The notes beneath the pieces are model-generated. The model made no database searches, was not told where the DNA came from, and saw nothing but the letters and a program-made list of their open reading frames with translations. Below are positions 4,197 through 43,602 of a stretch of 43,602 nt of DNA, piece by piece (positions within the stretch are counted from its first letter, which is position 1; each line of letters opens with the position of its first letter). The position numbers and the translations under genes are program-made. The DNA is taken from assembly GCA_947624665.1 (NCBI GenBank), contig CANQLK010000001.1, positions 1 through 43,602 of the forward strand, in the 5' to 3' direction. The DNA is from Candidatus Gastranaerophilales bacterium (GTDB lineage Bacteria > Cyanobacteriota > Vampirovibrionia > Gastranaerophilales > Gastranaerophilaceae).

Positions 4197-4562
4197 ATGT
4201 TATATAGAGCAATAGAACCCGAAGAATTTTTTAATGAAAAAGATGCCGACCATGAAATTGTTGATATTCTTCAAAACAACGGGGCTCATTTAAAGTTGGT
4301 TTATCTTAAAAAAGAAAACAGCTTTGACTCTCACGTTTCAAATACAGACGTATGTATTTATCTTTTAAACGGCGAACTGGAAATCAGCTTTTCAAAAGAA
4401 AATAACTGCGGCTGCAGTATTTGCGGATGTGATGAAGCTGAAGAAGATGAAAATTACAGAAAATACAAAATTAAAAAAGGTCAGTTATTTTTGTTTGAAA
4501 AGGATGTTCTGCATTCCCTAACCGCATTAAAAGATTCTGCTTTTATGCTGATAAAAATTTAA
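4197..4562 (+). CDS. small cupin-like protein with a Cys-rich insert (CGCSICGC)
   Basis: 121 aa, with AAAGGAG RBS upstream. The beta-rich pattern (HLKLVYLKKENSFDSHVS...IYLLNGELEI...LFLFEKDVLHSL) is typical of single-domain cupins. Confidence 0.55.
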   Translation: MLYRAIEPEEFFNEKDADHEIVDILQNNGAHLKLVYLKKENSFDSHVSNTDVCIYLLNGELEISFSKENNCGCSICGCDEAEEDENYRKYKIKKGQLFLFEKDVLHSLTALKDSAFMLIKI

Positions 4563-4566
4563 TATA

Positions 4567-4757
4567 TTGTCCGAGTAAATTTTTACGATAAGCCAAGGAG
4601 CGACGAGACCGAGCGTAAAGCAATTTCAAGACAGCGAAATTGCGGACGGACGAAGTCCGGTAAGCGAGGTCGGAAGCGAGTACAAGGCGATAAGCCGAAG
4701 GAGCGACGAGACCGAGCGTAAAGCAATTTCAAGACAGCAAGCGTAATGTTGCGACAC
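4567..4757 (+). repeat. GC-rich intergenic repeat, family A copy 1 (about 1.9 units of a ~102-nt tandem module)
   Basis: 4609-4689 is identical to the reverse complement of 17544-17624 (81 nt). An internal direct repeat of ~50 nt occurs at 4586-4635 and 4688-4738. Local hairpins are GCAATTTC-N8-GAAATTGC and CGGAC-GAA-GTCCG. GC content is far above the flanks. Confidence 0.9.
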
Positions 4758-4792
4758 TGGATTATATTACCTTATTACTATACAACGTATTG

Positions 4793-4827
4793 CAGACAGG
4801 AAATTTTTATTTCTTGTCTGTTTTTTT
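4793..4827 (+). terminator. rho-independent terminator following repeat A1
   Basis: Stem CAGACAGGAAAT / ATTTCTTGTCTG with one mismatch, followed by TTTTTTT. Confidence 0.7.
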
Positions 4828-4839
4828 ACGTAACATTTC

Positions 4840-4869
4840 TTGTAAAAATCAAATTTAATCATATATAAT
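4840..4869 (+). promoter_or_regulatory. candidate sigma70-type promoter for the 4892 operon
   Basis: TTGTAA (4840-4845), 18-nt spacer, TATAAT (4864-4869). An AGGA RBS lies 7 nt before the ATG at 4892. AT-rich DNA makes false positives likely. Confidence 0.35.
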
Positions 4870-4891
4870 AAGATATGATAGGATAGTTTAT

Positions 4892-5599
4892 ATGAAAAAG
4901 ATTTTTGTATTTATAATTGCTTTTGCATTTATGCTTAGTTTTTCTTTGAATGGTCAAGCAGGTGCGGCTGAAATTCAAAAAGGCAAAATTATAGAAATTA
5001 TAAGCATTCAAAAACGGATTAACAATATAGGTCTTAAATTGCTTAATGCAAATAAAATTGATAAAAGAATGATTTTTGTTTATGACCCAAAAATAAAAAA
5101 AATAAATTTTGAACCCGGACTTAGAAAAAGACAGATAATTGTTTATAAAAACTATATACAATTTGCCGATAATGATGATGAAATAGCTGCATTTCTGGCA
5201 AGAGAAACAGTAAAAACTTATCATTCATATTTAGGAGGAAAAGGCTGGGTTTCTTCCGCGCAGGTAAAGCTTGCGCCTAAAAAATTTGAGATATATTTTG
5301 ATAAAAGAGCCGTTGATTTTATGGTTAATGCAGGGTTTAACCCTTTGGGTTTGATAACTTTTATTAATAAATCTTATCCTCAAAAACGCAGCGACAGATT
5401 TGGCAGAACCAATTTAACTTCCAAAAGACTTGCTAATATCTATGAATATATTTACACAAAATATCCTTATTTCCTTAAATATAATACATATTTAAACAAC
5501 GAGGCTTACCAAAATTTCCTTCTGACTTCGGAAAACAACAGAAAAAAACTCTATGAGAAAATAAAATCAAATTCCAAAAAGGCCGTTAAATATGAATAA
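4892..5599 (+). CDS. secreted M48-like (BepA/LoiP-type) protein with a degenerate active site
   Basis: Signal peptide MKKIFVFIIAFAFMLSFSLNGQAGA. The segment DDEIAAFLARETVKTYH aligns by eye to the M48 motif (D/E)LAAVLAHExxH with H->R and H->K. The downstream FDKRAVDFMVNAGFNPLGLITFINK resembles the ExxAD...AGYDP block. Confidence 0.55.
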   Translation: MKKIFVFIIAFAFMLSFSLNGQAGAAEIQKGKIIEIISIQKRINNIGLKLLNANKIDKRMIFVYDPKIKKINFEPGLRKRQIIVYKNYIQFADNDDEIAAFLARETVKTYHSYLGGKGWVSSAQVKLAPKKFEIYFDKRAVDFMVNAGFNPLGLITFINKSYPQKRSDRFGRTNLTSKRLANIYEYIYTKYPYFLKYNTYLNNEAYQNFLLTSENNRKKLYEKIKSNSKKAVKYE

Positions 5600-6231: not shown

Positions 6232-7086
6232 ATGGAACAGGTTTTACAGGAAATTTTGCTTAAACAGGCAGGAAAAATTGACTTTTTGCTTATAGCAAAA
6301 ACTATATTTGAAATCATAGTTTTTATATTTTTTATAAGGTTTGTAAATAAAGCATTTCACATATTTTTCGAGAAAATAATTGAGCGTTTAAATGATACTG
6401 AAACAAAAAAGCTTTATATGACACTGCGACAACTTGGTGTTTATATAATAGATGCAATAATAGTACTGTTTTTCACAACAAACATATTGGGAAATTTCGG
6501 TATTGATATGAAACCGATATTGGCAACGGCAGGTGTTTTAGGTGTTGCTGTCGGTTTTGGCGGTAAAAAATTTGTTGAGGACGTATTCACGGGACTCTCA
6601 ATTATTTTGACAGGTCAGCTTAGAGTAGGTGATTTTGTTACGGTTAATAATTCAACGGGTTATGTTGAAAAAGTTACGTTAACAATGGTTGTTATTAGAA
6701 CCTTTAACGGTGATGTTCACTACCTTAGAAACGGTCAGATTGATACGGTTATTAACCAGACAAAAAATTATTCGTTTCCTGTTTTTAATTTTTCCGTTGC
6801 ATATAAATCTGATATTGTTCACGTAATGAAAGTATTAAAAGAACTTGGACAAGAACTTAGAGAAGATAATGTATACTCAAAATTCGTATTATCCGATATA
6901 GAAGTACTGGGATTAAATGAATTTCAGGATTCGGCCGTTGTAATTCAGTGCAGAATTAAAACAACGCCTCAAGAACAATGGATGATTAAACGTAAATTTA
7001 ATCAAATGGTAAAAGAAAGATTTGAAAAAGAAGGAATTGAAATTCCGTTTCCTCAAATTGTTGTTAGTCAAAATAAAAACGATTAA
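6232..7086 (+). CDS. MscS-family small-conductance mechanosensitive channel
   Basis: ATG at 6232 is preceded by AAGGAG. TM segments are followed by the conserved MscS beta-domain pattern (GDFVTVNNSTGYVEKVTLTMVVIRTFNGDVHYLRNGQI). The track start at 6112 overlaps the upstream gene and lacks an RBS. Confidence 0.85.
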   Translation: MEQVLQEILLKQAGKIDFLLIAKTIFEIIVFIFFIRFVNKAFHIFFEKIIERLNDTETKKLYMTLRQLGVYIIDAIIVLFFTTNILGNFGIDMKPILATAGVLGVAVGFGGKKFVEDVFTGLSIILTGQLRVGDFVTVNNSTGYVEKVTLTMVVIRTFNGDVHYLRNGQIDTVINQTKNYSFPVFNFSVAYKSDIVHVMKVLKELGQELREDNVYSKFVLSDIEVLGLNEFQDSAVVIQCRIKTTPQEQWMIKRKFNQMVKERFEKEGIEIPFPQIVVSQNKND

Positions 7087-7865
7087 AAAATATTGGAAAA
7101 CGATAAAAAATAATCCGATATAACATCAAACAACTGCGGCATAACTATTATTAAAATAGCAGCACCCATGCAGGGTTTAAATAAAAAACTCATCTGAAAA
7201 ACATTAACCTGAGGCGCTGTTTTTGAAATAATACCAAGAATAATATCCTGACCTAAAGTTGCAATTAAAACGGGAGAACCGATTTGCAAGCCGACATATA
7301 AAACGTTTGATGTTATTTTTATCAAATACGGCATATTGACTATTTCATCAATCGGCACAAAAGAACCGTATATCGGAAATATTTCAAAACTTCTTATAAA
7401 AGCATTGAAAGTCCAGTATGCACCGCCTATTTCAAGGAATATAATTATACCAAGAATGCTGAACAATTTTCCCATAATGGAAAGCTGAGAAGAAGTAGAC
7501 GGATCCATAATTGTTGCAGATGATACACCTTGCTGCATATTAATAATATCACCACCGGCTTCTGCTGCCGATATTATACAATTTACTATAAATCCGATTA
7601 AAGCTCCGCATAAGAAATTTATTATTATTGTATAGACAATCGGAGTTGAGTTTTGAGATATTTCAGGTCTTAAAAACATTGTTAGCATTATCGAAAACAG
7701 AAGCGCAAAACCTACTTTTGCCAACATAGGAATTTCTGTTCTGTTTAGAAACGGTGTAGTTCTCATTAAACCGACAACCCTTGCAAATATAGGAATACCT
7801 GCCGCCAACATTTTGTTTACTTCGGGAAAATATTTAGGAAATTCATTTATAATAATATCTAACAT
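7083..7865 (-). CDS. fliR: flagellar export gate protein FliR
   Basis: 260 aa polytopic protein, last gene of the fliOPQR order. N-terminal motif RVVGLMRTTPFL is typical of FliR/T3SS SctT. Confidence 0.85.
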   Translation of the reverse strand: MLDIIINEFPKYFPEVNKMLAAGIPIFARVVGLMRTTPFLNRTEIPMLAKVGFALLFSIMLTMFLRPEISQNSTPIVYTIIINFLCGALIGFIVNCIISAAEAGGDIINMQQGVSSATIMDPSTSSQLSIMGKLFSILGIIIFLEIGGAYWTFNAFIRSFEIFPIYGSFVPIDEIVNMPYLIKITSNVLYVGLQIGSPVLIATLGQDIILGIISKTAPQVNVFQMSFLFKPCMGAAILIIVMPQLFDVISDYFLSFSNIF

Positions 7866-7871
7866 ATTTTA

Positions 7872-8372
7872 TTAATTTCTTCCGTTTTCAAAAATTTTCT
7901 TTTGTTCTGCCAAGTTAGGTGTCGGGACGTTTGTTGCCCCGTTTCTTAGGAAGTTAAAAGTTTCTTTTTTGTTATTTGTCATTGGTTTTGCGGCATTTTG
8001 CATTATTTGTGACATAGGTGTCATATCTTTTTTTACGTCTGTCTTCATTTCGTCTATAAACGGTTTTGTATAGTTATAATAATCGGCAGGCAGAACAAAT
8101 TCGTCATTTTTAGGAACGACCTGAAAAGCTATATTGCTGCCTTCCGTAAAAAGGTTCGTAAGAAGCTTTAAATATGAAGTACCGAGAATAATAATTACAA
8201 GAAATACTGCAAAAATTTTAGGTGCTGCAGCAATAGTCTGTTCCTGAACCTGAGTAACAGCCTGCAAAATACCCACAACCAAACCTATTGCGGCTGCCGT
8301 TAATACGCACGGCATTGCAATCATTAACATAGTGATTAAACCTTGTGCGAAAAATTCTATCAGTATTTCCAT
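7872..8372 (-). CDS. fliQ: flagellar export gate protein FliQ with an unusual ~80-aa hydrophilic C-terminal extension
   Basis: The first ~88 aa carry the FliQ two-TM hairpin with the AVTQVQEQT motif. The ORF continues uninterrupted to 166 aa. Confidence 0.85.
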   Translation of the reverse strand: MEILIEFFAQGLITMLMIAMPCVLTAAAIGLVVGILQAVTQVQEQTIAAAPKIFAVFLVIIILGTSYLKLLTNLFTEGSNIAFQVVPKNDEFVLPADYYNYTKPFIDEMKTDVKKDMTPMSQIMQNAAKPMTNNKKETFNFLRNGATNVPTPNLAEQKKIFENGRN

Positions 8373-8380
8373 TTTTACCT

Positions 8381-9022
8381 CTAATTAAAACTTCCGACCA
8401 AGCCGTTTACAATTAACCCCCAACCGTCAACAGCAATAAAGATAAGCAGTTTAAACGGAAGCGATATGATTGTAGGTGATAACATAAACATACCAAGAGC
8501 TAACAGTACGTTCGCCACTACCAAATCCAATACTATAAACGGAACAAAAATTATAAAGCTTATTTCAAATGAGGTTTTCAGTTCGCTCAATATATAAGCG
8601 GGGGCTACCTCCCATATAGTAAGGTCTTCTACCGAGGCAGGAATTTCTTTTCTGGACAATTGAACAAAGAATGCCAAATCGTTTTCTCTTGTTTGTTTCA
8701 GCATAAATTCTTTAAGCGGTTTCGAACCTTCCGATATTGCCATAACGATAGAACCGTTTTCCTGATAGGGTTTTGAGCCTACTTCATACATTTGTTGAAA
8801 AACGGGCCCCATAGTATAAAAGGTTAATATAATTGAAAGACCTACCAACACTATTGCAGGCGGTATCTGCTGCGCTCCGAGTGCCTGTTTTAAAAATCCG
8901 AATACTATTGCATATCTCAAAAAGCTTGTCATACAAACAAACATAAAAGGTAAAAACGAGAATATCGCCATTACCATCAATAATTGTAATACGGGATTTA
9001 AATTTTGAAGAACCGAATCCAT
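8381..9022 (-). CDS. fliP: flagellar export gate protein FliP
   Basis: 213 aa. Motifs MTSFLRYAIVFGFLKQALGAQQIPP and GLSIILTFYTMGPV match the FliP/SctR signature. Confidence 0.92.
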   Translation of the reverse strand: MDSVLQNLNPVLQLLMVMAIFSFLPFMFVCMTSFLRYAIVFGFLKQALGAQQIPPAIVLVGLSIILTFYTMGPVFQQMYEVGSKPYQENGSIVMAISEGSKPLKEFMLKQTRENDLAFFVQLSRKEIPASVEDLTIWEVAPAYILSELKTSFEISFIIFVPFIVLDLVVANVLLALGMFMLSPTIISLPFKLLIFIAVDGWGLIVNGLVGSFN

Positions 9023-9024
9023 TT

Positions 9025-9342
9025 TTACCTCTGTCTATTTTCCTTTTCCGAATTATTATTTACCATATCCGAAGCGATGTCTGCCGTTTCATAACCCTGT
9101 AACTTAGCAAGCATAGTAGTATTTGCGCTGTCACCTGCTATTAAAAATTTTTCATTTCCTGCCTTTATCACATAAATTGTTTTTGTTGCCGACAGTCTGA
9201 GAGCATTTTCTACGGATAACAGATTTTTGTTTCTTACAACGGACTGAGAATACATTGTTTTCTTATATATAAATACGACAACTACCAAAAAGCCAATCAT
9301 TGCAAAGGTATAAGCCGTAAAATGTATCAAATATCCGTTCAT
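9025..9342 (-). CDS. fliO: flagellar biosynthesis protein FliO
   Basis: 105 aa, single N-terminal TM. The segment TIYVIKAGNEKFLIAGDSANTTMLAKL resembles the FliO core. Position immediately upstream of fliP. Confidence 0.75.
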   Translation of the reverse strand: MNGYLIHFTAYTFAMIGFLVVVVFIYKKTMYSQSVVRNKNLLSVENALRLSATKTIYVIKAGNEKFLIAGDSANTTMLAKLQGYETADIASDMVNNNSEKENRQR

Positions 9343-9351
9343 AATCTAAAC

Positions 9352-10587
9352 CTATATACTTTCATCTTCTATTTCAAAATCGCTATAGTCAAAATTTTCA
9401 TCTTCTTCAGAATCATTCTCATTATTTGCAGACTTTACAGCAGATTTAACAGCAGATTTTTTAGCTGAAGGTTCCGCTTTTGTCTTTGCAGCCGCCTTTT
9501 TTTCCGCAGTATTTGAAGCAGGCTTTGAAGCAGGAGCAGATGTCTTAACTTCTTCTTTTGTCTTTTTTATACTGTCAATTCTAACACCGTATCTGTCATT
9601 TAAAATAACCAATTCTCCGATTGCGACAACCTGATTTTCTACTCTCAACTTGATTTTATTTTCATATACGGAACCGACATCAATAACAAGTCCTTCGGAT
9701 ATTTGTTTTAACTCTCCGAGTGTAAGCTTAACATTATCAAATTCCGCAACTACATCAACAAGAATAGAATCCCACATATTTTGGGGTTTTACGCTTGTTT
9801 CTTCTTCCATTTCATTGCCTCCGTTATTATCAATACTTATTATTAAAGAAGGATTAGGATTTATTTTGAATTTATATCTGTTTTCACCTAAAATAACAAA
9901 CATTTCATTGATATTACTTTCTTCCAATAATATAATATCGCCTTCTTCAATATTTTTTATATCATTTAAAGGAACCCTTGTAAGACCTGCGCCTATATTT
10001 ACAGTAACTTTTGTATCTTTAAAGTCCGCAATGCCAAATTTTTCAATGCATTCTTTATCTTTTATATTCTTAATTATATATTCCGGAACGGTTACAATTA
10101 TTTTTCCAGCATGTTCTTTGCCATACCTTGCATAAAATGTAAAATGATAATCTTTTGCGGATTTTATTACATTTTTATTTACTTCACTTTTATCAAAATA
10201 CTGCTCCAAATTTTGAAAAAGATATACTGTAAACGTTTTTAAAATTTCTGTTTCTATATGAGTAAGCTTTTTCAGAGAAAATTCTTCTTCTTTTGCGCCA
10301 AAAGTATTATCCAAAATTGAAGATACAAAGGTCGATGATATTCTTATTGTTAATGTGGAATATTTATTCACTACTATTTTATTTACAAAATATTCATCAC
10401 CGTAAAATAAAATATTGTCTTTATCTTTAAAAGTACCTAAAAATCTTAACCGAAAATCTTTTTTAAAAAAATTGTCCAATGCTTTTTGCGTACAATTGAA
10501 AATATTAGTATAGAACCAATCATAGTTCTTAAAAAGACTCTCTGTTATATTACTATTATCTTTTTCCGATTTTAAAACAGCCATCAC
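9352..10587 (-). CDS. fliN: flagellar C-ring switch protein: FliM-like region fused to a FliN (SpoA) domain, with a disordered AKP-rich/acidic tail
   Basis: 411 aa with two SpoA-like segments. The first is ...VTVNIGAGLTRVPLNDIKNIEEGDIILLEE (FliM C-terminus-like). The second is DVVAEFDNVKLTLGELKQISEGLVIDVG...VAIGELVILNDRYGVRIDSI (FliN-like). I saw no N-terminal LSQxEIDALL CheY-binding peptide. Confidence 0.75.
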   Translation of the reverse strand: MMAVLKSEKDNSNITESLFKNYDWFYTNIFNCTQKALDNFFKKDFRLRFLGTFKDKDNILFYGDEYFVNKIVVNKYSTLTIRISSTFVSSILDNTFGAKEEEFSLKKLTHIETEILKTFTVYLFQNLEQYFDKSEVNKNVIKSAKDYHFTFYARYGKEHAGKIIVTVPEYIIKNIKDKECIEKFGIADFKDTKVTVNIGAGLTRVPLNDIKNIEEGDIILLEESNINEMFVILGENRYKFKINPNPSLIISIDNNGGNEMEEETSVKPQNMWDSILVDVVAEFDNVKLTLGELKQISEGLVIDVGSVYENKIKLRVENQVVAIGELVILNDRYGVRIDSIKKTKEEVKTSAPASKPASNTAEKKAAAKTKAEPSAKKSAVKSAVKSANNENDSEEDENFDYSDFEIEDESI

Positions 10588-14493: not shown

Positions 14494-15038
14494 TACAATT
14501 CTCTATCTTTGTACCTGTCTTTTATAGCTTCGATTAATTTTTTAACATTATCAACCAGTTCTTCATAACTTCCGTTATTATAAATAGTATAATCCCAATC
14601 GGAAATATTATCCAGTGCGGTTTCGGTATTGTCATTTTTTGAAGTTAAAACACCTCTTTTTTGTCTGATTTCTTCATCCGCTTCAACTCTTACGGTAAAG
14701 GCTCCGAAAGATTTAAATAAATCAAGTTCATGTTTAACTCTTATATCAGTAACAATTGTGTTTCCTTCAAAAGCAATAATCGAATTAAGCCAATAATCAG
14801 GGTTTTGAGCTCTTCCCCAATCTCCGAGATTAATTAAATCCTGCCTGTATTTTGATTTGTTTTTTTCTATTTCATCAATACTAAGACCTGTCTGCTTTGA
14901 ATACAATAACTTTATCGCATCGGCTATTCCGATACGGGTAAATGTCTTAAATTTTTCCAACAATATCTTAGCAACAGTATCTTTCCCGGAAAATTGCTTT
15001 CCTGAAAAAACGATTATTATTTTTTTATTATTATTCAT
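14493..15038 (-). CDS. P-loop kinase resembling animal-type phosphomevalonate kinase (P-mevalo_kinase / NMP-kinase fold)
   Basis: 181 aa. P-loop VFSGKQFSGKDTV compares with the metazoan PMVK LFSGKRKSGKDFV as I recall it. Further collinear similarity occurs at YRQDLINLGDWGRAQNPDYW, VTDIRVKHELDLFKSFGA, RVEADEEIRQKRG and DNISDWDYTIYNNG. Overlaps the rpsA stop by 8 nt and the LOG start by 1 nt (TAATG). Confidence 0.6.
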   Translation of the reverse strand: MNNNKKIIIVFSGKQFSGKDTVAKILLEKFKTFTRIGIADAIKLLYSKQTGLSIDEIEKNKSKYRQDLINLGDWGRAQNPDYWLNSIIAFEGNTIVTDIRVKHELDLFKSFGAFTVRVEADEEIRQKRGVLTSKNDNTETALDNISDWDYTIYNNGSYEELVDNVKKLIEAIKDRYKDREL

Positions 15039-16089
15039 TTTTTATACTAAGGCTGATTCTTCTGTCATCCGGATTGAATTTTAGAATAGTTATATTAATT
15101 TTATCACCAACTTTTAAAATAGTATTTTTACTGTTTTGATATTCCGTTAATTCATTATTCGGGAGCAGTGCCTCAACACCCGGAAATACTTCTACAAAAG
15201 CACCGAAATGTTTAATTCTTGTAATACAGCCTTCCAGTTTATCACCGTCTTTAATTTTGTCTTTTGCTTCATTCCAAGGGTCTTTTTCTAAATTTTTCAA
15301 ACTTAAGCTTATTCTTTGTTTTTCATTGTCAATAACTATAACTTCTACATTAACAATATCTCCGACTTTTAAAATATCAGAAGGATGATCAACCCATCTC
15401 CAAGAAATTTGAGATAACGGTAATAACGCATCTACACCGCCAATATCCACGAAAGCTCCAAAATCAGTTATTCTTACGACTTCGCCTTTTACAACCTGTC
15501 CTACTTGTATTGAGTCAAATATATCTTTTCTATTTTCTTCTTTATCTTCAGAATATACTTTTCTGTTGGAAAGAATGAAGTTTCCTTGTTGAATATCCAT
15601 AGTAAGAATCTTCAATTCAAGCTTTTCGCCGATAATATTATTATCATTAGATTTAATTTTCAGCTGACTGGAAGGAACGAAACCTCTTACTCCTTTAACT
15701 TCAACTAAAACACCGCCTTTTACGGAAGATACCACGGTACCTTCAACAACAGCATCTTCTGCTTTTAATTGTTCGAGTTCTCGCCAGCTGTATGCCATTG
15801 CTACTTTTTTATATGACAGCATAAATCTTCCGTCTTCATCTTCTTCTTTTATAATTAAAAATTCATATTCCTGATTTTTCTTTAATGTATCTTCCAAAGA
15901 TACGGATTTATCCACAACAGCTTCTTTAAACGGGACATAAGCTGCGGTTTTTGCGCCTATATCGACTATTGCACCCGTAGAGTCATAAGAACAAACTATA
16001 CCTTTTACCAAATCACCTTTCTGAAAACTGTAATCATAATTACTTAATAGTGCCTCAAATTCAGAATCAGTATAATTTTTCTCCAACAT
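15031..16089 (-). CDS. rpsA: 30S ribosomal protein S1 (four S1 domains)
   Basis: 352 aa with four repeats of the S1 OB-fold pattern (G.iV.G.V......Ga.VdiG....gf.p.sq.s). Confidence 0.88.
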   Translation of the reverse strand: MLEKNYTDSEFEALLSNYDYSFQKGDLVKGIVCSYDSTGAIVDIGAKTAAYVPFKEAVVDKSVSLEDTLKKNQEYEFLIIKEEDEDGRFMLSYKKVAMAYSWRELEQLKAEDAVVEGTVVSSVKGGVLVEVKGVRGFVPSSQLKIKSNDNNIIGEKLELKILTMDIQQGNFILSNRKVYSEDKEENRKDIFDSIQVGQVVKGEVVRITDFGAFVDIGGVDALLPLSQISWRWVDHPSDILKVGDIVNVEVIVIDNEKQRISLSLKNLEKDPWNEAKDKIKDGDKLEGCITRIKHFGAFVEVFPGVEALLPNNELTEYQNSKNTILKVGDKINITILKFNPDDRRISLSIKNE

Positions 16090-16275
16090 CTCTTTACCTC
16101 TTTATTTTACAACCATAATACTTTAATACGATTATTGTACAGCGATGAATTAATTTTGTAAAGAAAAAAACTGTTTAATTCCTATAGTCCTTACATATCA
16201 TAGGCTTTAACATTATTTATTCATATAAATATCGCACAAACATTAGCATTTTGCCTGTTCAAACAGTAATTATAA

Positions 16276-17463
16276 TTAATTTTTAAAATTATATATCGGC
16301 TTAATTATCTCATTAACTTGTGCGGTATCAGATATATTTTCAATGATATCCTTAGGATCTTTATATGCACTTGGAGCTTCATCTAAAGTATTTTTATTTA
16401 CACAAGTGGTATATATTCCATGCATAGCCAAGATATAGTCGTTTAAAGAGAGTTGAGCATTTGCTTCGCCTCTTGACATTTTTCTGCCTGCACCGTGCGG
16501 AGCCGTATTGTTCCAATCCGCATTCCCTTTACCTGTCGCCAGTATTACACCATCTCTCATGTTTAAAGGGATTAAAATTTGTTTACCTTTATCGGCAGAT
16601 ATTGCACCTTTTCTTATAATTCCGTCTTTAGAAATATAATTATGAACGCTTTCAAAAGAACTTGCCTCTTTCCAACCCATCCTATACAATATCTCATCTG
16701 CTATCGCCCTGCGGTTTTGCTTTGCATATTCTTGTGTTATACGCATATCCTCAAGATATTTTTCCGCTTCATCGCTGCTTAGATATGACAATTTGGGTAT
16801 AAAATAATGATTTTGATGTCGTGCAACAAATTCGTGGTGTTGTGCTACTTGTTTTCCTAATCCTCTTGAACCCGTATGTATAACAAGATACTTGTTTCCT
16901 TTTTTATCCGTGTCTATTTCTATAAAATGATTTCCACTTCCTACCGTTCCTAAATTGGATAAATGATAATCTGAGTTGATATCGCCGATATCATTGCACA
17001 TTGTTTTCACATTCTTTGCAAGCGAAGCGGGTACTTTTTTTAATGATTGCGGGATTTTCTCTCTTTTAGTTGAAGAATATTTTCTGATTACATTATCTAA
17101 TTTTTTGAAATCAATTTTTTGCCCTTGAGTTTCAAATTTTACGCATAACATTCCGCAGCCGATATCACTGCCTATAAGACCGGGAACAATTTTATCCTGA
17201 TTTACAGGAGAACTGAAACCCACCAATGTACCCTTCCCCGGATGTACATCAGGCATTATTCTAATCGGTTCATCCTCAAATGCGGGATGATTACATAATA
17301 TTTTTATTTGATCGGCCGTTTTATAGTCAATATTTTGCGTATAGACTTTTGCACAGGTCGCACTTCCTTTTATTTCCAAATGAGCTGAATTATTTTGGTT
17401 TTTTCCTTTAAACCTCAACTCTTTATTTTCCGTTTTATATAGGGGGGAAAGAGAATTTATCAT
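16276..17463 (-). CDS. rtcB: RtcB-family RNA 3'-phosphate/5'-OH ligase
   Basis: 395 aa. Motifs MPDVHPGKG, SDIGCGM, GSGNHFIE, HTGSRGLG and PHGAGR. Confidence 0.92.
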   Translation of the reverse strand: MINSLSPLYKTENKELRFKGKNQNNSAHLEIKGSATCAKVYTQNIDYKTADQIKILCNHPAFEDEPIRIMPDVHPGKGTLVGFSSPVNQDKIVPGLIGSDIGCGMLCVKFETQGQKIDFKKLDNVIRKYSSTKREKIPQSLKKVPASLAKNVKTMCNDIGDINSDYHLSNLGTVGSGNHFIEIDTDKKGNKYLVIHTGSRGLGKQVAQHHEFVARHQNHYFIPKLSYLSSDEAEKYLEDMRITQEYAKQNRRAIADEILYRMGWKEASSFESVHNYISKDGIIRKGAISADKGKQILIPLNMRDGVILATGKGNADWNNTAPHGAGRKMSRGEANAQLSLNDYILAMHGIYTTCVNKNTLDEAPSAYKDPKDIIENISDTAQVNEIIKPIYNFKN

Positions 17464-17501
17464 AGTTTTACCTTGGGGGATTATATTTTTAAGTTAATCT
17501 G

Positions 17502-17628
17502 GTGTCGCAACATTACGCTCGGTCTAGTCGCTCCTTCGGCTGCCGCCTTGTACTCGCTTCCGACCTCGCTTACCGGACTTCGTCCGTCCGCAATTTCGCT
17601 GTCTTGAAATTGCTTTACGCTCGGACAA
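17502..17628 (-). repeat. GC-rich intergenic repeat, family A copy 2 (single unit), in the rtcB leader
   Basis: The reverse complement matches 4567-4757. The 81-nt core 17544-17624 is identical. Both ends are shared with copy 1 (TTGTCCGAG ... CGTAATGTTGCGACAC). Ends 38 nt upstream of the rtcB ATG, in the same orientation as rtcB. Confidence 0.9.
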
Positions 17629-17689
17629 GTTACGTGTATATAAATTACAAAAATAATATTTTTTGCTTAAATTATTAAATTTTTTAACA

Positions 17690-17722
17690 AAAAAGAGGTC
17701 AATTAATAATTGACCTCTTTTT
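17690..17722 (-). terminator. dnaK rho-independent terminator (palindromic, bidirectional)
   Basis: AAAAAGAGGTCAATT-AAT-AATTGACCTCTTTTT. Lies 15 nt downstream of the dnaK stop. Confidence 0.8.
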
Positions 17723-17736
17723 AACTTGATTATAAA

Positions 17737-19584
<1,848 letters not shown>

Positions 19585-19708
19585 CTATATCTCCGTTTCT
19601 TAATTCTATAATTTTAAAGCACACTTTTTTCTGCTTCATATTCTTTTTATATCACCATTTTTTATCATTCATTAAAAAATAAACAAAAAATTAATATTTT
19701 GAATTTGA

Positions 19709-21307
19709 TTAAATTTTTTTGTTGTTTATAAAATCTTCATCGTTCAGCTTGTTGAAATCAATATTATTTAATTCTTCTTCAGTAAATATTCCGCCATTCT
19801 TTTTGAATTCTTGTTCAGCTTCTTCTTCACTAGTAAATATATATTGTGTATTTATTTTTATATTTTTAGAAGTATTGTTTATAAAATCTATATATGGAGA
19901 TGTGGTATATAATATATTTTCTTTTCTTTCATTAACAGCTTCAAAAAATCCCCAGTTGTAGTTGTTTAAAAACAGTTCTCTGCTTAAATATGCAGGTCTT
20001 TTTCTCATACTCGCCAATTTTATTATTTTTTCCGCCTTGTATGTTTGAATTTTTTGCGGGATTACCAAATGTTTCAAATTATAATCGTAATAACCGAAAT
20101 TTCTTTTTATCAATACACAAGCAATTATGATTAATAAAATATTTATATGGATTTCTTTTACTGTTTTATTTCTAATCAACAGATTTAACAGTAAAAAATT
20201 AAAAGCCGATAACAATATATTAAACATAATGTGTAAATCAGGATGTGATATCCAGTATAAAGAAGGATTATAGTCATATTTTTCCAACCCGATAAGCGAT
20301 AAGAAAAATATACATATACCAAAAATAAAACAGAATATTATTTTTATTGTTTGTTTTTCCGCATAAGCTTCTTCTTTTTCTTTACGGCTCAAGTTTTTGA
20401 GTATGATTATACTTTGTATGATTATTAATCCAAGTCCGATAATATGTTTTAGAAAGACATATTTAATATAGTTTAAACCGAATACGGGAATAGATTTTAT
20501 TACGTTAATTATATATTGGGTATTAAAAAAATTATACTCGGAATGTCTTGTAAATGCGCCTTCTTTTAAAAGCAATATAAATCCGATAATCAGTAACAGT
20601 ATATATATCAGAATTTTTATTGCTTGTGATTTTTTTACAGTCTTTAAAGAATGGCTTATTTCATTATTTTCTTTTCGTTTCTCAATAAAAAATATAAAAG
20701 TATATAAAATAAATGCCGTTAAGATTGATATTAATATCATTTCGTTTGAAATACCGCATAGGAATACTAAAACAGCCGTAATAAAGAACGGGATTTTTTC
20801 GGATGAAAATATATCCTTATGCAAAAAATAGACCATGCCTGCCATAATAAAAGGCGGCAGAAGCATTCTAAACAATCCGTCGTAAGTATATAATAATAAA
20901 ATCGGTTGTTCTTGAATAAATGAAAATATTAAAGCAGTCGAAAAAACGTATATAAAAGGATAAAAGATATTTATTTTTCTGTTTAAATATAAAAAATTCG
21001 TCAAGATAACAGAAAAAGCAATAAAAAATCCTGCTTCTATATAGCAAAAATATTCTGATTTAAAGCTGCTCGGATGTATGCCTAAAGAAAAAGGAATTAG
21101 GGAAGTAAATAATTTCCCTAAAAATAGAGGTAAATAGATACTTCTTTGATATGGGAAAAAGAATAAATCTTTAATATTTTTGCATTGCAAAAATATGTCA
21201 TCCGCAAAAACAAAAGAATAACTGAATAAATATTTTAGAATAAAAAATTCCGACAAAATAAAAAATAATATACAAATAACAATTATAGCTTTATTCTTAA
21301 AAATCAT
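19709..21307 (-). CDS. large polytopic membrane protein with C-terminal soluble domain, unknown function
   Basis: 532 aa with more than 10 hydrophobic segments and very AT-rich codon usage. No motif recognised. Confidence 0.55.
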   Translation of the reverse strand: MIFKNKAIIVICILFFILSEFFILKYLFSYSFVFADDIFLQCKNIKDLFFFPYQRSIYLPLFLGKLFTSLIPFSLGIHPSSFKSEYFCYIEAGFFIAFSVILTNFLYLNRKINIFYPFIYVFSTALIFSFIQEQPILLLYTYDGLFRMLLPPFIMAGMVYFLHKDIFSSEKIPFFITAVLVFLCGISNEMILISILTAFILYTFIFFIEKRKENNEISHSLKTVKKSQAIKILIYILLLIIGFILLLKEGAFTRHSEYNFFNTQYIINVIKSIPVFGLNYIKYVFLKHIIGLGLIIIQSIIILKNLSRKEKEEAYAEKQTIKIIFCFIFGICIFFLSLIGLEKYDYNPSLYWISHPDLHIMFNILLSAFNFLLLNLLIRNKTVKEIHINILLIIIACVLIKRNFGYYDYNLKHLVIPQKIQTYKAEKIIKLASMRKRPAYLSRELFLNNYNWGFFEAVNERKENILYTTSPYIDFINNTSKNIKINTQYIFTSEEEAEQEFKKNGGIFTEEELNNIDFNKLNDEDFINNKKI

Positions 21308-35542: not shown

Positions 35543-35579
35543 CTAAATATTCCTTTTTTTAAAATTAAAAATTATTAAA

Positions 35580-35815
35580 GAATAAAAAAATAATTTTAAT
35601 TTAAGTCAGCTCTAATGGAGAATAATAGAAAATCTTATTGAAGAAACAGCAAGACGAGCACTGTTTGAGCGGAGCAACGCAAAGCGAACCGCTGAGCCGA
35701 TGGCGAAGCGTGTGAGATTTTAAAAGAAGCAAAGCGAGTTTGCGAGTCTTTGCTGAAATTTAGATTTTCTTTATTCGCAATTCGAAGCTGACGTAATTAA
35801 ATTATTTTTTTAATA
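35580..35815. repeat. family B element: ~235-nt imperfect palindrome with GC-rich centre and AT-rich termini (MITE-like or structured RNA)
   Basis: The left arm (35580-35660) pairs imperfectly with the right arm (35733-35815). The right arm is an exact reverse-complement match to 43537-43602. The central ~70 nt is GC-rich (GAGCGGAGCAACGCAAAGCGAACCGCTGAGCCGATGGCGAAGCG). Confidence 0.85.
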
Positions 35816-35826
35816 TTAAATAAAAA

Positions 35827-35979
35827 AGAGAAATTGGATAACGGATACTACGCTTCTATTTTACTAAATTCAACCTAAGGCTTCGTAACTCCCGATTTCA
35901 TCGGTTCAAACAGACGAAGCCTTGACGTTGTTTCATTAAGTAAAATTACGAAGCTCCGTATATGTTCTCCAATTCCTCT
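35827..35979. repeat. hairpin C: ~150-nt long imperfect palindrome that also serves as a terminator-like structure for the GT2 gene
   Basis: Basal stem AGAGAAATTGGA / TCCAATTCCTCT. Perfect 10-bp inner stem AAGGCTTCGT (35877-35886) / ACGAAGCCTT (35914-35923). A/T runs flank both sides. The basal stem is homologous to the short pgk terminator stem at 43476-43511. Confidence 0.75.
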
Positions 35980-36035
35980 TTTTTTATTTTTTTTCTTTTC
36001 GAATAAAAAATAATTTAATTTATAACTATCCAACC

Positions 36036-39650: not shown

Positions 39651-39739
39651 ATTCCAAAACAATAATATTAAAATAAAAAACTATATAAAATTCAATATTT
39701 ATAAATTTATTAATTAAGTTTTGAACATATTTATTATTA

Positions 39740-40185
39740 AAAATTATTTTATACAAAGATGAAAAAAACGTAAAAAGCAAATAAAAAGGCATGGTTTCAT
39801 GCCTTTTTTGTATTAAAAATTTACAATTTATTTTTTTTAAACCTGTATAAAACTTGTAGAAAACTATTTCAAATCTTGTTTAAAATTTGAATTATTATAT
39901 CAATAACTTTTTCAATTTCTAAATACAAATTTCTTTTTAAACAAATTTATACATATTTTTATACAGTTTTATACAGGTTTTTAAACAGACTAAAAGTCTA
40001 ATGAATATAAGATAATCAGATAGTTTTCTACAATAAAAAAATTACTTATTACTACTATTAAAAATAAATTATTATATATAAATAATAAATAATAAAGAAA
40101 GAGAAAATCAATTAAATAAAATTTTTTAATCAAAATTTTATTTTTCTTATATAATAAAGGAGTGCACAAAAAATAGAGGATAAAT
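39740..40185. other. putative chromosomal replication origin (oriC) upstream of dnaN
   Basis: There are seven 9-mers of type TTTT(A/C)TACA. TTTTATACA occurs at 39747-39755, 39957-39965 and 39967-39975. Its complement TGTATAAAA occurs at 39844-39852. TTTTCTACA occurs at 40024-40032, and its complement TGTAGAAAA at 39855-39863. ATTTATACA occurs at 39945-39953. A nearly pure A/T tract at 40040-40140 abuts dnaN. Confidence 0.55.
39783..39809. terminator. orphan terminator-like hairpin inside the dnaN-upstream intergenic region
   Basis: AAAAAGGCATG-GTTT-CATGCCTTTTTT. No CDS ends next to it on either strand. Confidence 0.5.
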
Positions 40186-43525: not shown

Positions 43526-43602
43526 AAAAATAATTTAATTACGTCAGCTTCGAATTGCGAATAAAGAAAATCTAAATTTCAGCAAAGACTCGCAAACTCG
43601 CT
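43526..43602. repeat. family B element copy 2 (truncated by window end), inverted relative to copy 1
   Basis: 43537-43602 is the exact reverse complement of 35733-35798. Homology continues, with A/T-run indels, through the AT spacer into the terminator stem. Confidence 0.85.

What the first reader, a model, noticed from the sequence alone, without database searches (positions are those of the whole stretch)
4567..4757. GC-rich structured intergenic repeat family A: 81-nt identical core in two loci 13 kb apart
Seen in sequence: 4609-4689 is base-for-base identical to the reverse complement of 17544-17624. The two copies also share both termini (TTGTCCGAG ... CGTAATGTTGCGACAC). The element is roughly 55% GC in a genome of about 30% GC. 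It contains the hairpins GCAATTTC-N8-GAAATTGC and CGGAC-GAA-GTCCG. Copy 1 carries extra modules joined at recurring CCGAG|CGTAA junctions, giving about 1.9 units of a ~102-nt tandem repeat. Copy 1 is followed ~35 nt later by a strong rho-independent terminator (4793-4827), as expected for a discrete small-RNA unit or a structured 3' UTR. I found no convincing ORF, transposase, CRISPR-like periodicity or known ncRNA signature. Established knowledge: GC-rich long intergenic regions in AT-rich genomes are a classic indicator of structured ncRNAs, and perfect conservation of non-coding copies suggests recent mobility or strong constraint.
Basis: partly seen in the sequence, partly recalled or inferred. 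Interest (0 to 1): 0.65.

Follow-up and report, generated by a model that had tools for sequence, protein, structure and literature searches.

The report
Mobile structured repeat in gut Melainabacteria
The two GC-rich intergenic copies belong to a previously undescribed, repeated and apparently mobile DNA module of rabbit-gut Gastranaerophilales and their phages; its roughly 103-base unit folds into a conserved three-armed structure on one strand only, so it looks like a BOX/MITE-type repeat rather than a stand-alone small-RNA gene.

Summary
**Observation.** It is real. 4609-4689 equals the reverse complement of 17544-17624 (81 nt, 100%). The element is 53% GC in a 30.5% GC window, and both the hairpins and the downstream terminator are present.

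**What it is.** It matches no Rfam family. It is a modular repeat built from a 101-122 nt unit that folds, on the purine-rich strand only, as a three-way junction:
- P1 is GAAATTGC/GCAATTTC.
- P2 is a short hairpin.
- P3 has the base GCGAG…CGAGC, which carries an invariant tandem G·A.
- The junction bases are invariant, while the stems covary across rabbit-gut Gastranaerophilales MAGs, two metagenome contigs and two AT-rich phage contigs.

**Evidence for mobility.**
- Both window copies have the same ends (GTCCGAG…GACACNNGAT), and each is flanked by a perfect 6-bp direct repeat: TATATT for copy 1 and TAACTT for copy 2.
- In rabbit-gut metagenomes the core is about 100 times deeper than its flanks.
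- Copy 1 starts 7 nt after a stop codon and lies upstream of the terminator, so it is a 3' UTR passenger.
- Copy 2 lies between the dnaK terminator and rtcB.

**Reading.** The best fit is a new BOX/MITE-like structured interspersed repeat. How it moves and whether it acts as RNA are not shown. No transposase, no convincing terminal inverted repeats and no empty site were found, and the RNA-seq evidence is inconclusive.

The parts
4563..4568 (+). Left copy of the 6-bp flanking direct repeat TATATT, read as a target-site duplication of copy 1. It starts right after the TAA stop codon of the 121-aa ORF at 4560-4562.
   Evidence: The same 6-mer recurs at 4763-4768. The chance of a match at fixed boundaries is 8e-4 to 4e-3.
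4569..4762 (+). Copy 1 of the element, 194 nt, from GTCCGAG to GACACTGGAT. The purine-rich strand, which is the one that folds, is the + strand.
   Evidence: In metagenome contigs, similarity to other copies starts at 4562-4568 and stops at 4764 (loose ends).
4569..4594 (+). 5' end module GTCCGAGTAAATTTTTACGATAAGCC. It is also found in L001 and L003. Its copy number is low.
   Evidence: Depth is only 4-14 against 220-420 for the core.
4589..4635 (+). Partial unit made of the 3' half of P3, junction GTAAA, the P1 3' arm GCAATTTC and linker AAGACAGC.
   Evidence: Direct repeat D4, 4595-4635 = 4698-4738. Reading.
4636..4738 (+). One complete 103-nt unit. P1 5' arm 4636-4643; GGA 4644-4646; P2 hairpin 4647-4659; GTAA 4660-4663; P3 4664-4717, with tandem G·A at 4666-4667 and 4714-4715; GTAAA 4718-4722; P1 3' arm 4723-4730; linker 4731-4738.
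   Evidence: MFE fold of the unit. Covariance-model hit of 111.8 bits at 4634-4740. Pair counts.
4739..4762 (+). 3' tail AAGCGTAATGTTGCGACACTGGAT, read as a degenerate P1 3' arm plus linker. It is shared with copy 2, L001 and L003.
   Evidence: The covariance model aligns the tail of copy 2 as a weak P1 3' arm.
4763..4768 (+). Right copy of the 6-bp flanking direct repeat TATATT.
4792..4828 (+). Intrinsic terminator with a 13-pair stem and a T-run. It most likely belongs to the 121-aa ORF, whose 3' UTR carries copy 1, and is not part of the repeat.
17497..17626 (-). Copy 2 of the element, 130 nt, about 1.25 units. It lies between the dnaK terminator hairpin (about 17690-17720) and the rtcB-family gene (16276-17463), in the same orientation as both genes.
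   Evidence: (69.3 bits).
17627..17632 (-). Upstream copy, in the element's orientation, of the 6-bp flanking direct repeat TAACTT of copy 2.
17491..17496 (-). Downstream copy of the 6-bp flanking direct repeat TAACTT of copy 2.
17480..17508 (-). Promoter-like site. The -35-like hexamer GCACA-type GCGACA lies inside the element's 3' tail, and TATAAT follows 17 nt later in the flank, 17 nt before the rtcB start codon. It may be a hybrid promoter. It is a consensus match only.
   Evidence: 10 of 12 matches.

Best explanation
The two loci are recent insertions of a non-coding, non-autonomous interspersed repeat that is specific to a lineage of gut Gastranaerophilales (Melainabacteria) and their phages.

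**Building block.** The unit is 101-122 nt long. On its purine-rich strand it folds into a three-way junction:
- P1 is the closing stem GRAATTGC/GCAATTYC.
- The junction GGA follows.
- P2 is a short hairpin.
- The junction GTAA follows.
- P3 has the base 5'-GCGAG-N…N'-CGAGC-3', containing two sheared G·A pairs.
- The junction GYAAA and the linker AAGACAGC complete the unit.

**Shown.**
- Units occur singly or in short head-to-tail arrays.
- The window subfamily has fixed ends (GTCCGAG…GACACNNGAT).
- Both window copies are flanked by perfect 6-bp duplications of AT-rich sequence of the form TAnnTT.
- The element is many-fold over-represented in metagenomes.

**Inferred.**
- Units are gained and lost by recombination between the recurring GAGCGTAA and CCGAG motifs.
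- An enzyme supplied in trans makes staggered cuts and inserts the element into AT-rich intergenic DNA.
- The element survives best just after stop codons, where it is co-transcribed. There its stable G·A-rich fold would act as a passive 3' UTR structure (a block to exonucleases, or a processing site).
- Its outward-facing TTGCGACA end can occasionally supply a -35 box, as in front of rtcB.
- The conserved junction bases are what the mobilising or binding factor recognises.
For: **Same element at unrelated sites.**
- The sites are copies 1 and 2 in the window, three MAGs (L001-L004), two metagenome contigs (L005-L006) and two phage contigs (L015 and L019).
- Metagenome contigs add many further distinct flanks (loose ends).

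**Copy number.**
- Core depth is 220-577 against 2-8 for the flanks in four gut metagenomes.
- Contigs break at the element. L001 and L002 end in or near one, and the window itself ends inside a family B repeat.

**Insertion signature.**
- The fixed ends are shared by four copies in three genomes.
- The 6-bp flanking duplications are perfect in both young copies. The chance of a match at fixed boundaries is 8e-4 to 4e-3 per copy.

**Non-coding, low-cost positions.**
- There is no credible ORF in the element.
- All 11 loci are intergenic. Six of the eight that can be oriented run with the neighbouring genes.
- Copy 1 and the L015 array both lie between a stop codon and a terminator.

**Structure.**
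- Every unit variant folds on its own into the same three-way junction.
- 90-91% of cells are paired, against 47% or less when the partners are slid.
- The covariation score is 0.183 against 0.105 shuffled (2/500), and 0.232 against 0.119 (0/500).
- The P3 base uses at least five different complementary sequences.
- P1 changes from A-U through G·U to G-C.
- There are 10 G·U cells against 1 A·C cell, and the G·A/G·A columns are invariant in 12 of 12 units.
- AGCG occurs 3-14 times per locus on one strand and never on the other.

**Genomic setting.**
- The window carries two further high-copy structured repeat families, B and C, that nest and alternate. This is the pattern described for clustered BOX/RUP/SPRITE repeats (PMC3049150).
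Against: - **No mobilising enzyme.** No transposase, RAYT or reverse transcriptase is found in the window or in the fetched loci, and no IS with matching ends is seen.
- **Weak terminal inverted repeats.** About 7 of 8 positions match, with a gap, in copy 1, and about 7 of 15 in copy 2.
- **Duplications not universal.** The flanking duplication is absent or decayed in the two older copies, L001 and L003.
- **No empty site.** None was found for either copy in the metagenomes.
- **Depth is ambiguous.** The 5' end module is only about as deep as single-copy sequence. Much of the 100-fold depth may therefore come from tandem arrays or from other subfamilies rather than from dispersed copies of this exact element.
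- **Structure exceeds what a cut-and-paste MITE needs.** Invariant internal junction bases with covarying stems are more than such an element requires, and they point to selection on the folded strand itself.
- **No direct proof of transcription.** Element contigs occur in one RNA-seq run, but they could come from carried-over DNA.
Confidence: 0.55

Rival explanations
1. The unit is a functional structured RNA shared by host and phage, for example a protein-binding decoy or sponge, or a cis-acting stabiliser or antiterminator. On this reading the copies are paralogous functional sites, and mobility is secondary.
For: - The junction bases and the tandem G·A are invariant while the stems covary.
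- The fold is strand-specific and uses G·U pairs.
- Six of eight orientable copies run with transcription.
- The unit is kept in two phage contigs.
- Element contigs occur in an RNA-seq run.
Against: - No promoter or terminator belongs to the unit itself.
- The neighbouring genes are unrelated from locus to locus.
- Two copies are antisense to their neighbours.
- Units are truncated or permuted at many loci.
- About 90 kb from other Gastranaerophilales contains none.
- Flanking duplications indicate insertion.
- The RNA-seq signal is explained equally well by DNA at 100-fold copy excess.
Confidence: 0.22
2. It is a single-stranded-DNA element recognised as a folded hairpin or junction by an HUH/Y1 enzyme, as with REP/BIME elements and RAYT, or with IS200/IS605-derived palindrome-associated elements.
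For: - The structure is strand-specific, and G·A pairs also form in DNA.
- There are no terminal inverted repeats.
- The inverted repeat GAAATTGC/GCAATTTC is subterminal in the L005, L006 and L015 subfamily.
Against: - IS200/IS605 and REP elements do not make target duplications, whereas both young copies have 6-bp ones.
- There is no conserved 5' GTAG, and no conserved tetra- or pentanucleotide at the left flank.
- Copies 1 and 2 lie 13 kb apart in opposite orientation, each matching local transcription.
- No Y1/RAYT gene was seen.
- G·U cells outnumber A·C cells 10 to 1, which fits RNA better.
Confidence: 0.1
3. The unit is copied through a unit-length circular or concatemeric RNA or DNA intermediate. 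That would make it a retrozyme- or satellite-like element, possibly with self-cleavage at the AAGACAGC|G junction and ligation by RtcB.
For: - Arrays are head-to-tail.
- Some arrays start and end at different phases of the unit.
- P1 can either close one unit or bridge two units.
- Cyclic 132-nt assembly contigs (102 + 30 nt) occur in X7 and X13.
- Copy 2 lies next to rtcB.
Against: - Nothing matches any ribozyme family in Rfam, even at E = 10 or below.
- Cyclic contigs are what any tandem repeat is expected to produce.
- Four of eight arrays start at the same base, GCGAAATTGC.
- Eight rtcB neighbourhoods in relatives carry no unit.
- No reverse transcriptase was seen.
Confidence: 0.05
4. It is a decaying fragment of a gene or IS end, or an assembly artefact or contaminant.
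For: - Short ORFs of 43-49 aa overlap it on the minus strand.
- The repeats break assemblies, which can cause chimeric joins.
Against: - The ORFs are not conserved and lie on the strand that does not fold.
- Stems covary.
- The same unit is assembled independently in many samples and studies.
- Matching 6-bp duplications on both sides argue that the joins are correct.
- It matches nothing in phage GenBank records.
Confidence: 0.03

Closest known systems
BOX elements of Streptococcus pneumoniae and S. suis (boxA, a variable number of boxB, boxC)
   Same: - Both are small non-coding intergenic composite repeats.
- Both have end modules around a variable number of tandem internal modules.
- Both are predicted to fold strongly when transcribed and are often co-transcribed with neighbouring genes.
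- Both cluster and nest with other repeat families.
- In both, module number changes by local recombination (PMC3049150).
   Different: - No sequence relationship is evident.
- The repeated module here is about 103 nt, against about 45 nt for boxB (my recollection).
- The module is itself a three-way junction with invariant junction bases and tandem G·A pairs.
- The element is GC-rich in an AT-rich genome.
- Units also occur in phage contigs.
- The ends do not form a clear inverted repeat.
Bacterial MITEs (Correia/NEMIS, RUP, ERIC, the cyanobacterial Nezha)
   Same: - Both are short, non-coding and multi-copy.
- Both lie in AT-rich intergenic targets.
- Both show flanking target duplications, here in the two young copies.
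- Both can create promoters or RNA processing sites when inserted.
   Different: - MITEs are defined by terminal inverted repeats that match a parent IS. Here the inverted repeats are weak and no parent IS is known.
- MITEs are usually AT-rich whole-length hairpins, not strand-specific G·A-rich junctions arranged in tandem.
REP/BIME elements with RAYT transposases
   Same: - Both are GC-rich structured extragenic repeats.
- Both are commonly placed between a stop codon and a terminator.
- Both show mosaic arrangements and stabilise 3' UTRs (established knowledge).
   Different: - REPs are 20-40 nt simple palindromes with a 5' GTAG. They alternate in orientation within BIMEs and make no target duplication.
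- None of these features holds here.
Multi-copy structured RNA motifs catalogued in Rfam
   Same: - It is a GC-rich island in an AT-rich genome.
- It has a covarying multi-stem fold with conserved junction bases.
   Different: - It reaches no Rfam 15 family at the gathering score, and there is no meaningful hit at E = 10 or below.
- It has no constant gene association and no promoter or terminator of its own.

Membership tests
Any Rfam 15 family (including ribozymes, Y RNA/YrlA, T-box, 5S, SRP) | A covariance-model score at or above the family's gathering threshold | tested here: not met
   No hit in the whole window. Only noise at E = 10 or below across 4450-4900. Only tRNAs in L001-L006 at E = 1 or below.
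MITE | Short, non-coding, with no transposase of its own | tested here: met
   The copies are 130-194 nt. Only unconserved 43-49 aa ORFs lie on the non-folding strand. No transposase domain is found in any window ORF.
MITE | Multiple copies at unrelated sites | tested here: met
   At least 11 loci have different flanks. The core is about 100 times deeper than its flanks in four metagenomes.
MITE | Target-site duplication | tested here: met
   TATATT flanks copy 1 and TAACTT flanks copy 2, at the same element boundaries. The chance is 8e-4 to 4e-3 per copy. The duplication is not intact in the older copies L001 and L003.
MITE | Terminal inverted repeats | tested here: not met
   In copy 1, GTCCGAGT against the reverse complement ATCC-AGT matches about 7 of 8 positions with a gap. 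In copy 2 about 7 of 15 match (reading).
MITE | A parent IS with the same ends in the same genomes | not testable with these tools
   No IS with these ends occurs in the roughly 190 kb held.
BOX-type composite repeat | End modules enclosing a variable number of tandem internal modules | tested here: met
   Copy 1, copy 2, L001 and L003 share the same ends but differ in internal content. Tandem arrays of 2.1 units occur in L002, L004 and L015.
BOX-type composite repeat | Sequence homology to boxA, boxB or boxC | not tested
   No BOX models or sequences were available. The hosts are unrelated (Streptococcus against Melainabacteria), so homology is not expected.
REP/BIME | 20-40 nt imperfect palindromes with a conserved 5' GTAG, alternating orientation, and an associated RAYT gene | tested here: not met
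   The unit is a 101-122 nt three-way junction. Units are head-to-tail. No Y1 or RAYT domain is found in the window.
IS200/IS605-derived palindrome-associated element | No target duplication; insertion 3' of a fixed tetra- or pentanucleotide; orientation tied to the replication strand | tested here: not met
   6-bp duplications are present. The left flanks differ. Copies 1 and 2 lie in opposite orientation 13 kb apart.
Independent small-RNA gene | Its own promoter and its own terminator, giving a discrete transcript | tested here: not met
   Copy 1 starts 7 nt after a stop codon, with no promoter-like site upstream. Copy 2 has no terminator. Transcript ends could not be mapped, because the RNA runs are held only as contigs.
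Riboswitch or gene-specific cis-regulatory leader | A constant position upstream of one functional class of genes | tested here: not met
   The neighbours are a 121-aa ORF, dnaK/rtcB, asnS, tRNA-Pro, phage tail genes and others, and the element lies mostly 3' of genes. Eight rtcB loci in relatives lack it.
Integron attC site | R''/L''…L'/R' core sites (RYYYAAC…GTTRRRY) at the 3' ends of gene cassettes | tested here: not met
   The core motifs are absent at the ends (reading). The flanking genes are housekeeping genes, not cassettes.

The most novel reading that the evidence does not exclude
The 101-122 nt unit may be a new class of functional RNA: a G·A-rich three-way junction with invariant junction nucleotides. 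Both Gastranaerophilales and their phages would keep it because it does something as RNA, such as binding or titrating a protein, acting on RNA polymerase or a nuclease, or cutting itself. On this reading the head-to-tail, partly permuted arrays would reflect copying through unit-length intermediates rather than ordinary transposition.
Probability: 0.18. Interest if true: 0.75.

Novelty: new member of a known kind. Interest (0 to 1): 0.45.

Why it matters
- **First report for this group.** Nothing of this kind was found described for Melainabacteria. These repeats break MAG assemblies: the window and several contigs end inside them. They are therefore systematically under-represented, and knowing them helps assembly, binning and strain typing of Gastranaerophilales.
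- **A clean candidate motif.** The unit has covarying stems, invariant junction bases and a conserved tandem G·A. It is small enough to probe, crystallise or test for protein binding.
- **A host-phage link.** Its presence in AT-rich phage contigs ties those phages to a Gastranaerophilales-type host. It also raises the question of whether phages spread it or use it.
- **Ordinary interest otherwise.** If it is only a selfish repeat, its interest is that of BOX or Correia elements: 3' UTR structures and occasional promoter creation, here possibly in front of rtcB.

Tried and rejected
- **Known RNA families.** The Rfam gathering and E-value scans of the window and of six loci returned nothing. ARAGORN found no tRNA- or tmRNA-like gene in the elements.
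- **An RtcB or Y-RNA-type link for copy 2.** I fetched 8 neighbourhoods of rtcB homologues (60-72% identical) from other Gastranaerophilales. None carries a unit or any GC-rich AGCG island, and gene order is not conserved.
- **Thermodynamic stability as evidence.** Z-scores of -0.3 to -1.7 are not significant. The case for structure rests on comparison between copies.
- **Orthologous or empty sites.**
  - Exact-protein look-ups of three flanking proteins found no record.
  - Metagenome contigs showed no joint that skips either copy.
- **Transcription.**
  - One RNA-seq run holds element contigs at depth 5-8.
  - Near the element (14500-20500) that run otherwise shows only diverged (85-90% identical) dnaK-like contigs.
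  - With about 100-fold DNA copy excess, this does not prove RNA.
- **Annotated phages.** No blastn match was found for the element or for the L015 phage contig.
- **Extra viral scans.** One pattern had the wrong spacer length and found nothing. Two others returned mostly chance hits in coding regions (L016-L018 and L020-L023).
- **RNAalifold on the raw MAFFT alignment.** It recovered only the P3 base, because the variable arms were misaligned. I replaced it with a hand-specified structure and a covariance-model alignment.
- **A CRISPR array or integron attC site.** Both were rejected on reading the sequence, because the spacing and the core sites do not fit.
- **DnaA boxes near dnaN.** They are not enriched.
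Full report
**1. The observation**

Reading the two regions and the repeat scan confirm the finding.
- 4609-4689 is the exact reverse complement of 17544-17624 (81 nt, 100%).
- Further matches of 24-30 nt lie on both sides. Both copies share TTGTCCGAG at one end and CGTAATGTTGCGACAC at the other.
- Copy 1 contains an exact 41-nt direct repeat 103 nt apart (4595-4635 and 4698-4738). This is about 1.4-1.5 clean units rather than 1.9.
- The window is 30.5% GC, and the two loci are 53% GC.
- They are strongly strand-asymmetric. One strand is 65-67% purine. AGCG occurs 8 and 6 times on that strand and never on the other.
- The terminator after copy 1 is real: a 13-pair stem at 4792-4821 followed by a T-run.
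- Folding energy alone is unremarkable, with z-scores of -0.3 to -1.7.

**2. Source and relatives**

- *Organism.* Word matches place the window in rabbit-gut metagenomes. A scan of one genome per species with a 25-mer from the core found five matches in three MAGs. Two are named Candidatus Gastranaerophilales, from rabbit ('Lapin'). The third is labelled uncultured Muribaculaceae, but its two fetched stretches are 35% GC.
- *Further copies.* A metagenome scan added two contigs. Viral scans added two AT-rich contigs (31-33% GC) from one sample. One of these, L015, encodes a major head protein, a head-tail adaptor and tail proteins, so it is a phage.
- *Known families and literature.* No Rfam family matches the window or the related loci, even at permissive thresholds. 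No tRNA-like gene is called. Phage GenBank records hold nothing similar. Two literature searches on Melainabacteria and Gastranaerophilales repeats or non-coding RNAs found nothing relevant.

**3. Anatomy**

Comparing the loci shows that the finding is one arrangement of a modular family whose building block is a 101-122 nt unit. In order, the unit consists of:
- the P1 5' arm GRAATTGC;
- GGA;
- the P2 hairpin;
- G(G/T)TAA;
- the P3 5' strand GCGAG-N…;
- a variable interior;
- the P3 3' strand …N'-CGAGC;
- GYAAA;
- the P1 3' arm GCAATTYC;
- the linker AAGACAGC.

Each of ten unit variants, folded alone, gives the same three-way junction.

The stems change sequence but stay paired:
- P2 is CGGAC/GTCCG, CGAGT/ACTCG or CGGGT/ACCCG.
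- The P3 base continues as GTC/GAC, TGC/GCA, AACT/AGTT, TTTT/AAAA or AAAT/ATTT.
- One P1 pair runs from A-U (window) through G·U (L002, L004) to G-C (a second L002 copy).

The two G·A/A·G columns inside GCGAG/CGAGC are invariant in 12 of 12 units.

Pair counts support the fold:
- On a MAFFT alignment of eight units, 90.4% of cells are paired, against 47% or less when the partners are slid. The covariation score is 0.183 against 0.105 in shuffles (2 of 500 reach it).
- A covariance model searched over 188 kb found only these loci plus two diverged units. On its 13-row alignment, 91.5% of cells are paired and the score is 0.232 against 0.119 (0 of 500). That alignment is fitted to the structure, so it leans towards it.

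G·U cells outnumber A·C cells 10 to 1. Together with the tandem G·A pairs, this shows that the fold exists on the purine-rich strand only. That fits RNA, or less likely single-stranded DNA. It also explains both the purine richness and the one-strand AGCG signal.

**4. How units are arranged**

- *Arrays.* Units occur singly (L005, L006, L019) or as head-to-tail arrays of about 2.1 units (L002, L004, L015). L002 has a roughly 600-nt run of increasingly diverged units in front of tRNA-Pro.
- *Two ways of pairing.* Because the P1 arms lie at the two ends of a unit, they can close a single unit.
- *The window subfamily.* Copy 1, copy 2, L001 and L003 start at GTC(C/T)GAG, which is homologous to the P3 3' strand. 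They end in a tail, TGTTGCGACACNNGAT, that the model aligns as a degenerate P1 3' arm plus linker.
- *Copy 2 against copy 1.* They differ by two deletions, each bounded by short direct repeats (CCGAG…CCGAG and AGCGTAA…AGCGTAA).

**5. Evidence for insertion**

- *Flanking duplications.* With the boundaries set at GTCCGAG…GGAT/AGAT, copy 1 (4569-4762) is flanked by TATATT on both sides. Copy 2 (17626 down to 17497) is flanked by TAACTT on both sides. In this window a 6-mer match at fixed boundaries occurs at a rate of 8e-4, or 4e-3 for AT-rich flanks. The boundaries were chosen on copy 1, so copy 2 is an independent test.
- *Older copies.* L001 and L003 lack intact duplications.
- *Boundaries in metagenomes.* Similarity between copies in metagenome contigs starts at 4562-4568 and stops at 4764. 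This is close to the same boundaries but overlaps the start of each flanking 6-mer, which begins TA in several copies.
- *Depth.* The core reaches depth 220-577 where the flanks are 2-8, in four gut metagenomes. The contigs there are 40-130 nt fragments, as expected for a repeat that breaks assembly graphs.
- *Caveat on depth.* The 5' end module of copy 1 has only about the depth of single-copy sequence. Joints that go back 102 nt show tandem arrays elsewhere. Part of the excess therefore comes from arrays and other subfamilies.
- *What was not found.* No empty site was seen for either copy.

**6. Context**

- *Window genes.* The window is ordinary chromosome: hpt, tilS, an MscS-type channel, fliOPQR and fliN, a DNA methylase, the S1 protein, an rtcB-family gene, dnaK, recF, thrS, dnaN, pgk and others. 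No transposase, RAYT or reverse transcriptase is present.
- *Copy 1.* It starts 7 nt after the stop codon of a 121-aa ORF and lies upstream of the terminator, so it should be transcribed as that gene's 3' UTR.
- *The L015 phage array.* It lies similarly, between a stop codon and a large hairpin. The stop codon there is supplied by the element itself.
- *Copy 2.* It lies after the dnaK terminator hairpin and 34 nt before rtcB. Its tail provides GCGACA exactly 17 nt upstream of a TATAAT. This is a possible hybrid promoter, but only a consensus match.
- *Orientation.* Of eight loci that can be oriented, six run with the neighbouring genes and two against them. That is suggestive but not significant.
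- *The rtcB link.* It is not general. Eight rtcB neighbourhoods from related genomes carry no unit.

**7. Transcription**

One RNA-seq run holds element contigs at depth 5-8 and none of the immediate flanks. With a 100-fold DNA copy excess this does not exclude DNA carry-over. Apart from the element, the neighbouring 6 kb is covered in that run only by diverged (85-90% identical) dnaK-like contigs. The 132-nt cyclic contigs are what any tandem repeat produces.

**8. Interpretation**

The best-supported reading (about 0.55) is a new family of non-autonomous, modular, structured interspersed repeats. It is functionally closest to pneumococcal BOX elements, which have end modules, tandem internal modules, a strong predicted RNA fold, co-transcription and clustering with other repeats (PMC3049150). 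It is also close to MITEs. The two window copies are recent insertions.
- *Shown:* the repeat family, its defined ends, the flanking duplications, the strand-specific conserved fold, the high copy number and the presence in phage contigs.
- *Inferred:* the trans-acting enzyme, the recombination that changes unit number, and any effect on mRNA stability or promoter activity.
- *Main rival (about 0.22):* the unit is a functional RNA in its own right. Invariant junction bases with covarying stems are more than a cut-and-paste element needs.
- *Other rivals:* a single-stranded-DNA element moved by an HUH enzyme (about 0.1) is disfavoured by the duplications, the orientations and the G·U excess. 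A circular-intermediate or ribozyme model (about 0.05) has no positive evidence. Gene decay or artefact (about 0.03) is essentially excluded.

**9. Novelty and score**

The sequence family and its fold are not in Rfam, and I found them nowhere in the literature available to me. The kind of element is familiar. I rate it a new member of a known kind, with interest 0.45.

The interest lies in three things:
- the well-defined G·A-rich three-way junction;
- the copies in phage contigs;
- the practical effect on Gastranaerophilales assemblies.

Noticed in passing
window 35556-35809 and 43526-43602 (minus strand; runs off the window end): There is a second repeat family, 'B'. The two copies share 77 nt at 100% identity, and similarity continues into the flank. 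It is about 205 nt long, purine-rich and carries AAGCGA/GAGCG motifs. Nested inverted repeats close it (GTCAGCT…AGCTGAC and AGAAAATCT…AGATTTTCT). Its MFE is -59.5 kcal/mol with z = -3.3. It is 10-60 times deeper than its flanks in gut metagenomes. The window ends inside a copy, as expected if these repeats break assemblies.
   Followed up: partly
window 35810-35989: A third repeat, 'C', is a 176-nt near-perfect long hairpin followed by a T-run (MFE -56.1 kcal/mol, z = -8.9), and it too is high-depth. One metagenome contig joins 35809 directly to 35990, so C is absent there and may be an insertion polymorphism. Other contigs join 35989 back to 35556, so B and C alternate in arrays elsewhere.
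   Followed up: partly
window 17480-17508 (minus strand): The 3' tail of copy 2 supplies a -35-like GCGACA exactly 17 nt upstream of a TATAAT that lies 17 nt before the rtcB start codon. This may be a promoter created or altered by the insertion.
   Followed up: no
L015 586-795 (minus strand), IMG/VR contig 3300010163_003623; also L019 463-567: An AT-rich (33% GC) phage contig with head, head-tail adaptor and tail genes carries two identical tandem units (55% GC). They lie right after a 162-aa ORF whose last 7 codons and stop codon lie inside the element. A second viral contig from the same sample carries a diverged unit. This suggests that these are Gastranaerophilales phages.
   Followed up: partly
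L002 5985-6530, upstream of tRNA-Pro (6572-6647): A roughly 550-nt uninterrupted run of units and increasingly diverged unit-like modules, all in one orientation with 12 AGCG and no CGCT, sits directly in front of a tRNA gene. Another unit lies on the opposite strand at the contig end (7120-7231).
   Followed up: partly
L002 and L004 (contigs CAZBFV010000034.1 and CAZBFV010000001.1): The MAG carrying these loci is titled 'uncultured Muribaculaceae'. However, the two fetched stretches are 35% GC and share this Gastranaerophilales repeat family. An rtcB homologue is also labelled Muribaculaceae (P0067). The taxonomic label may be wrong.
   Followed up: no
window 39662-40186: A 520-nt AT-rich non-coding region lies upstream of dnaN. 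It carries four to five copies of TTTATACA(G)/TTTAAACAG and several tandem repeats. It may be a replication origin, although canonical DnaA boxes are not enriched.
   Followed up: partly
window 7083-10587: A flagellar export and switch gene cluster is present (fliR, fliQ, fliP, fliO and a fliN/fliM-like gene), so this Gastranaerophilales lineage is probably motile.
   Followed up: no
window 16276-17463: The RtcB-family ligase stands alone, with no rtcA or rsr nearby. It scores well below the NCBIfam equivalog cut-offs (145 against 407 bits). Its closest relatives are only 72% identical, and gene neighbourhoods differ between relatives.
   Followed up: partly
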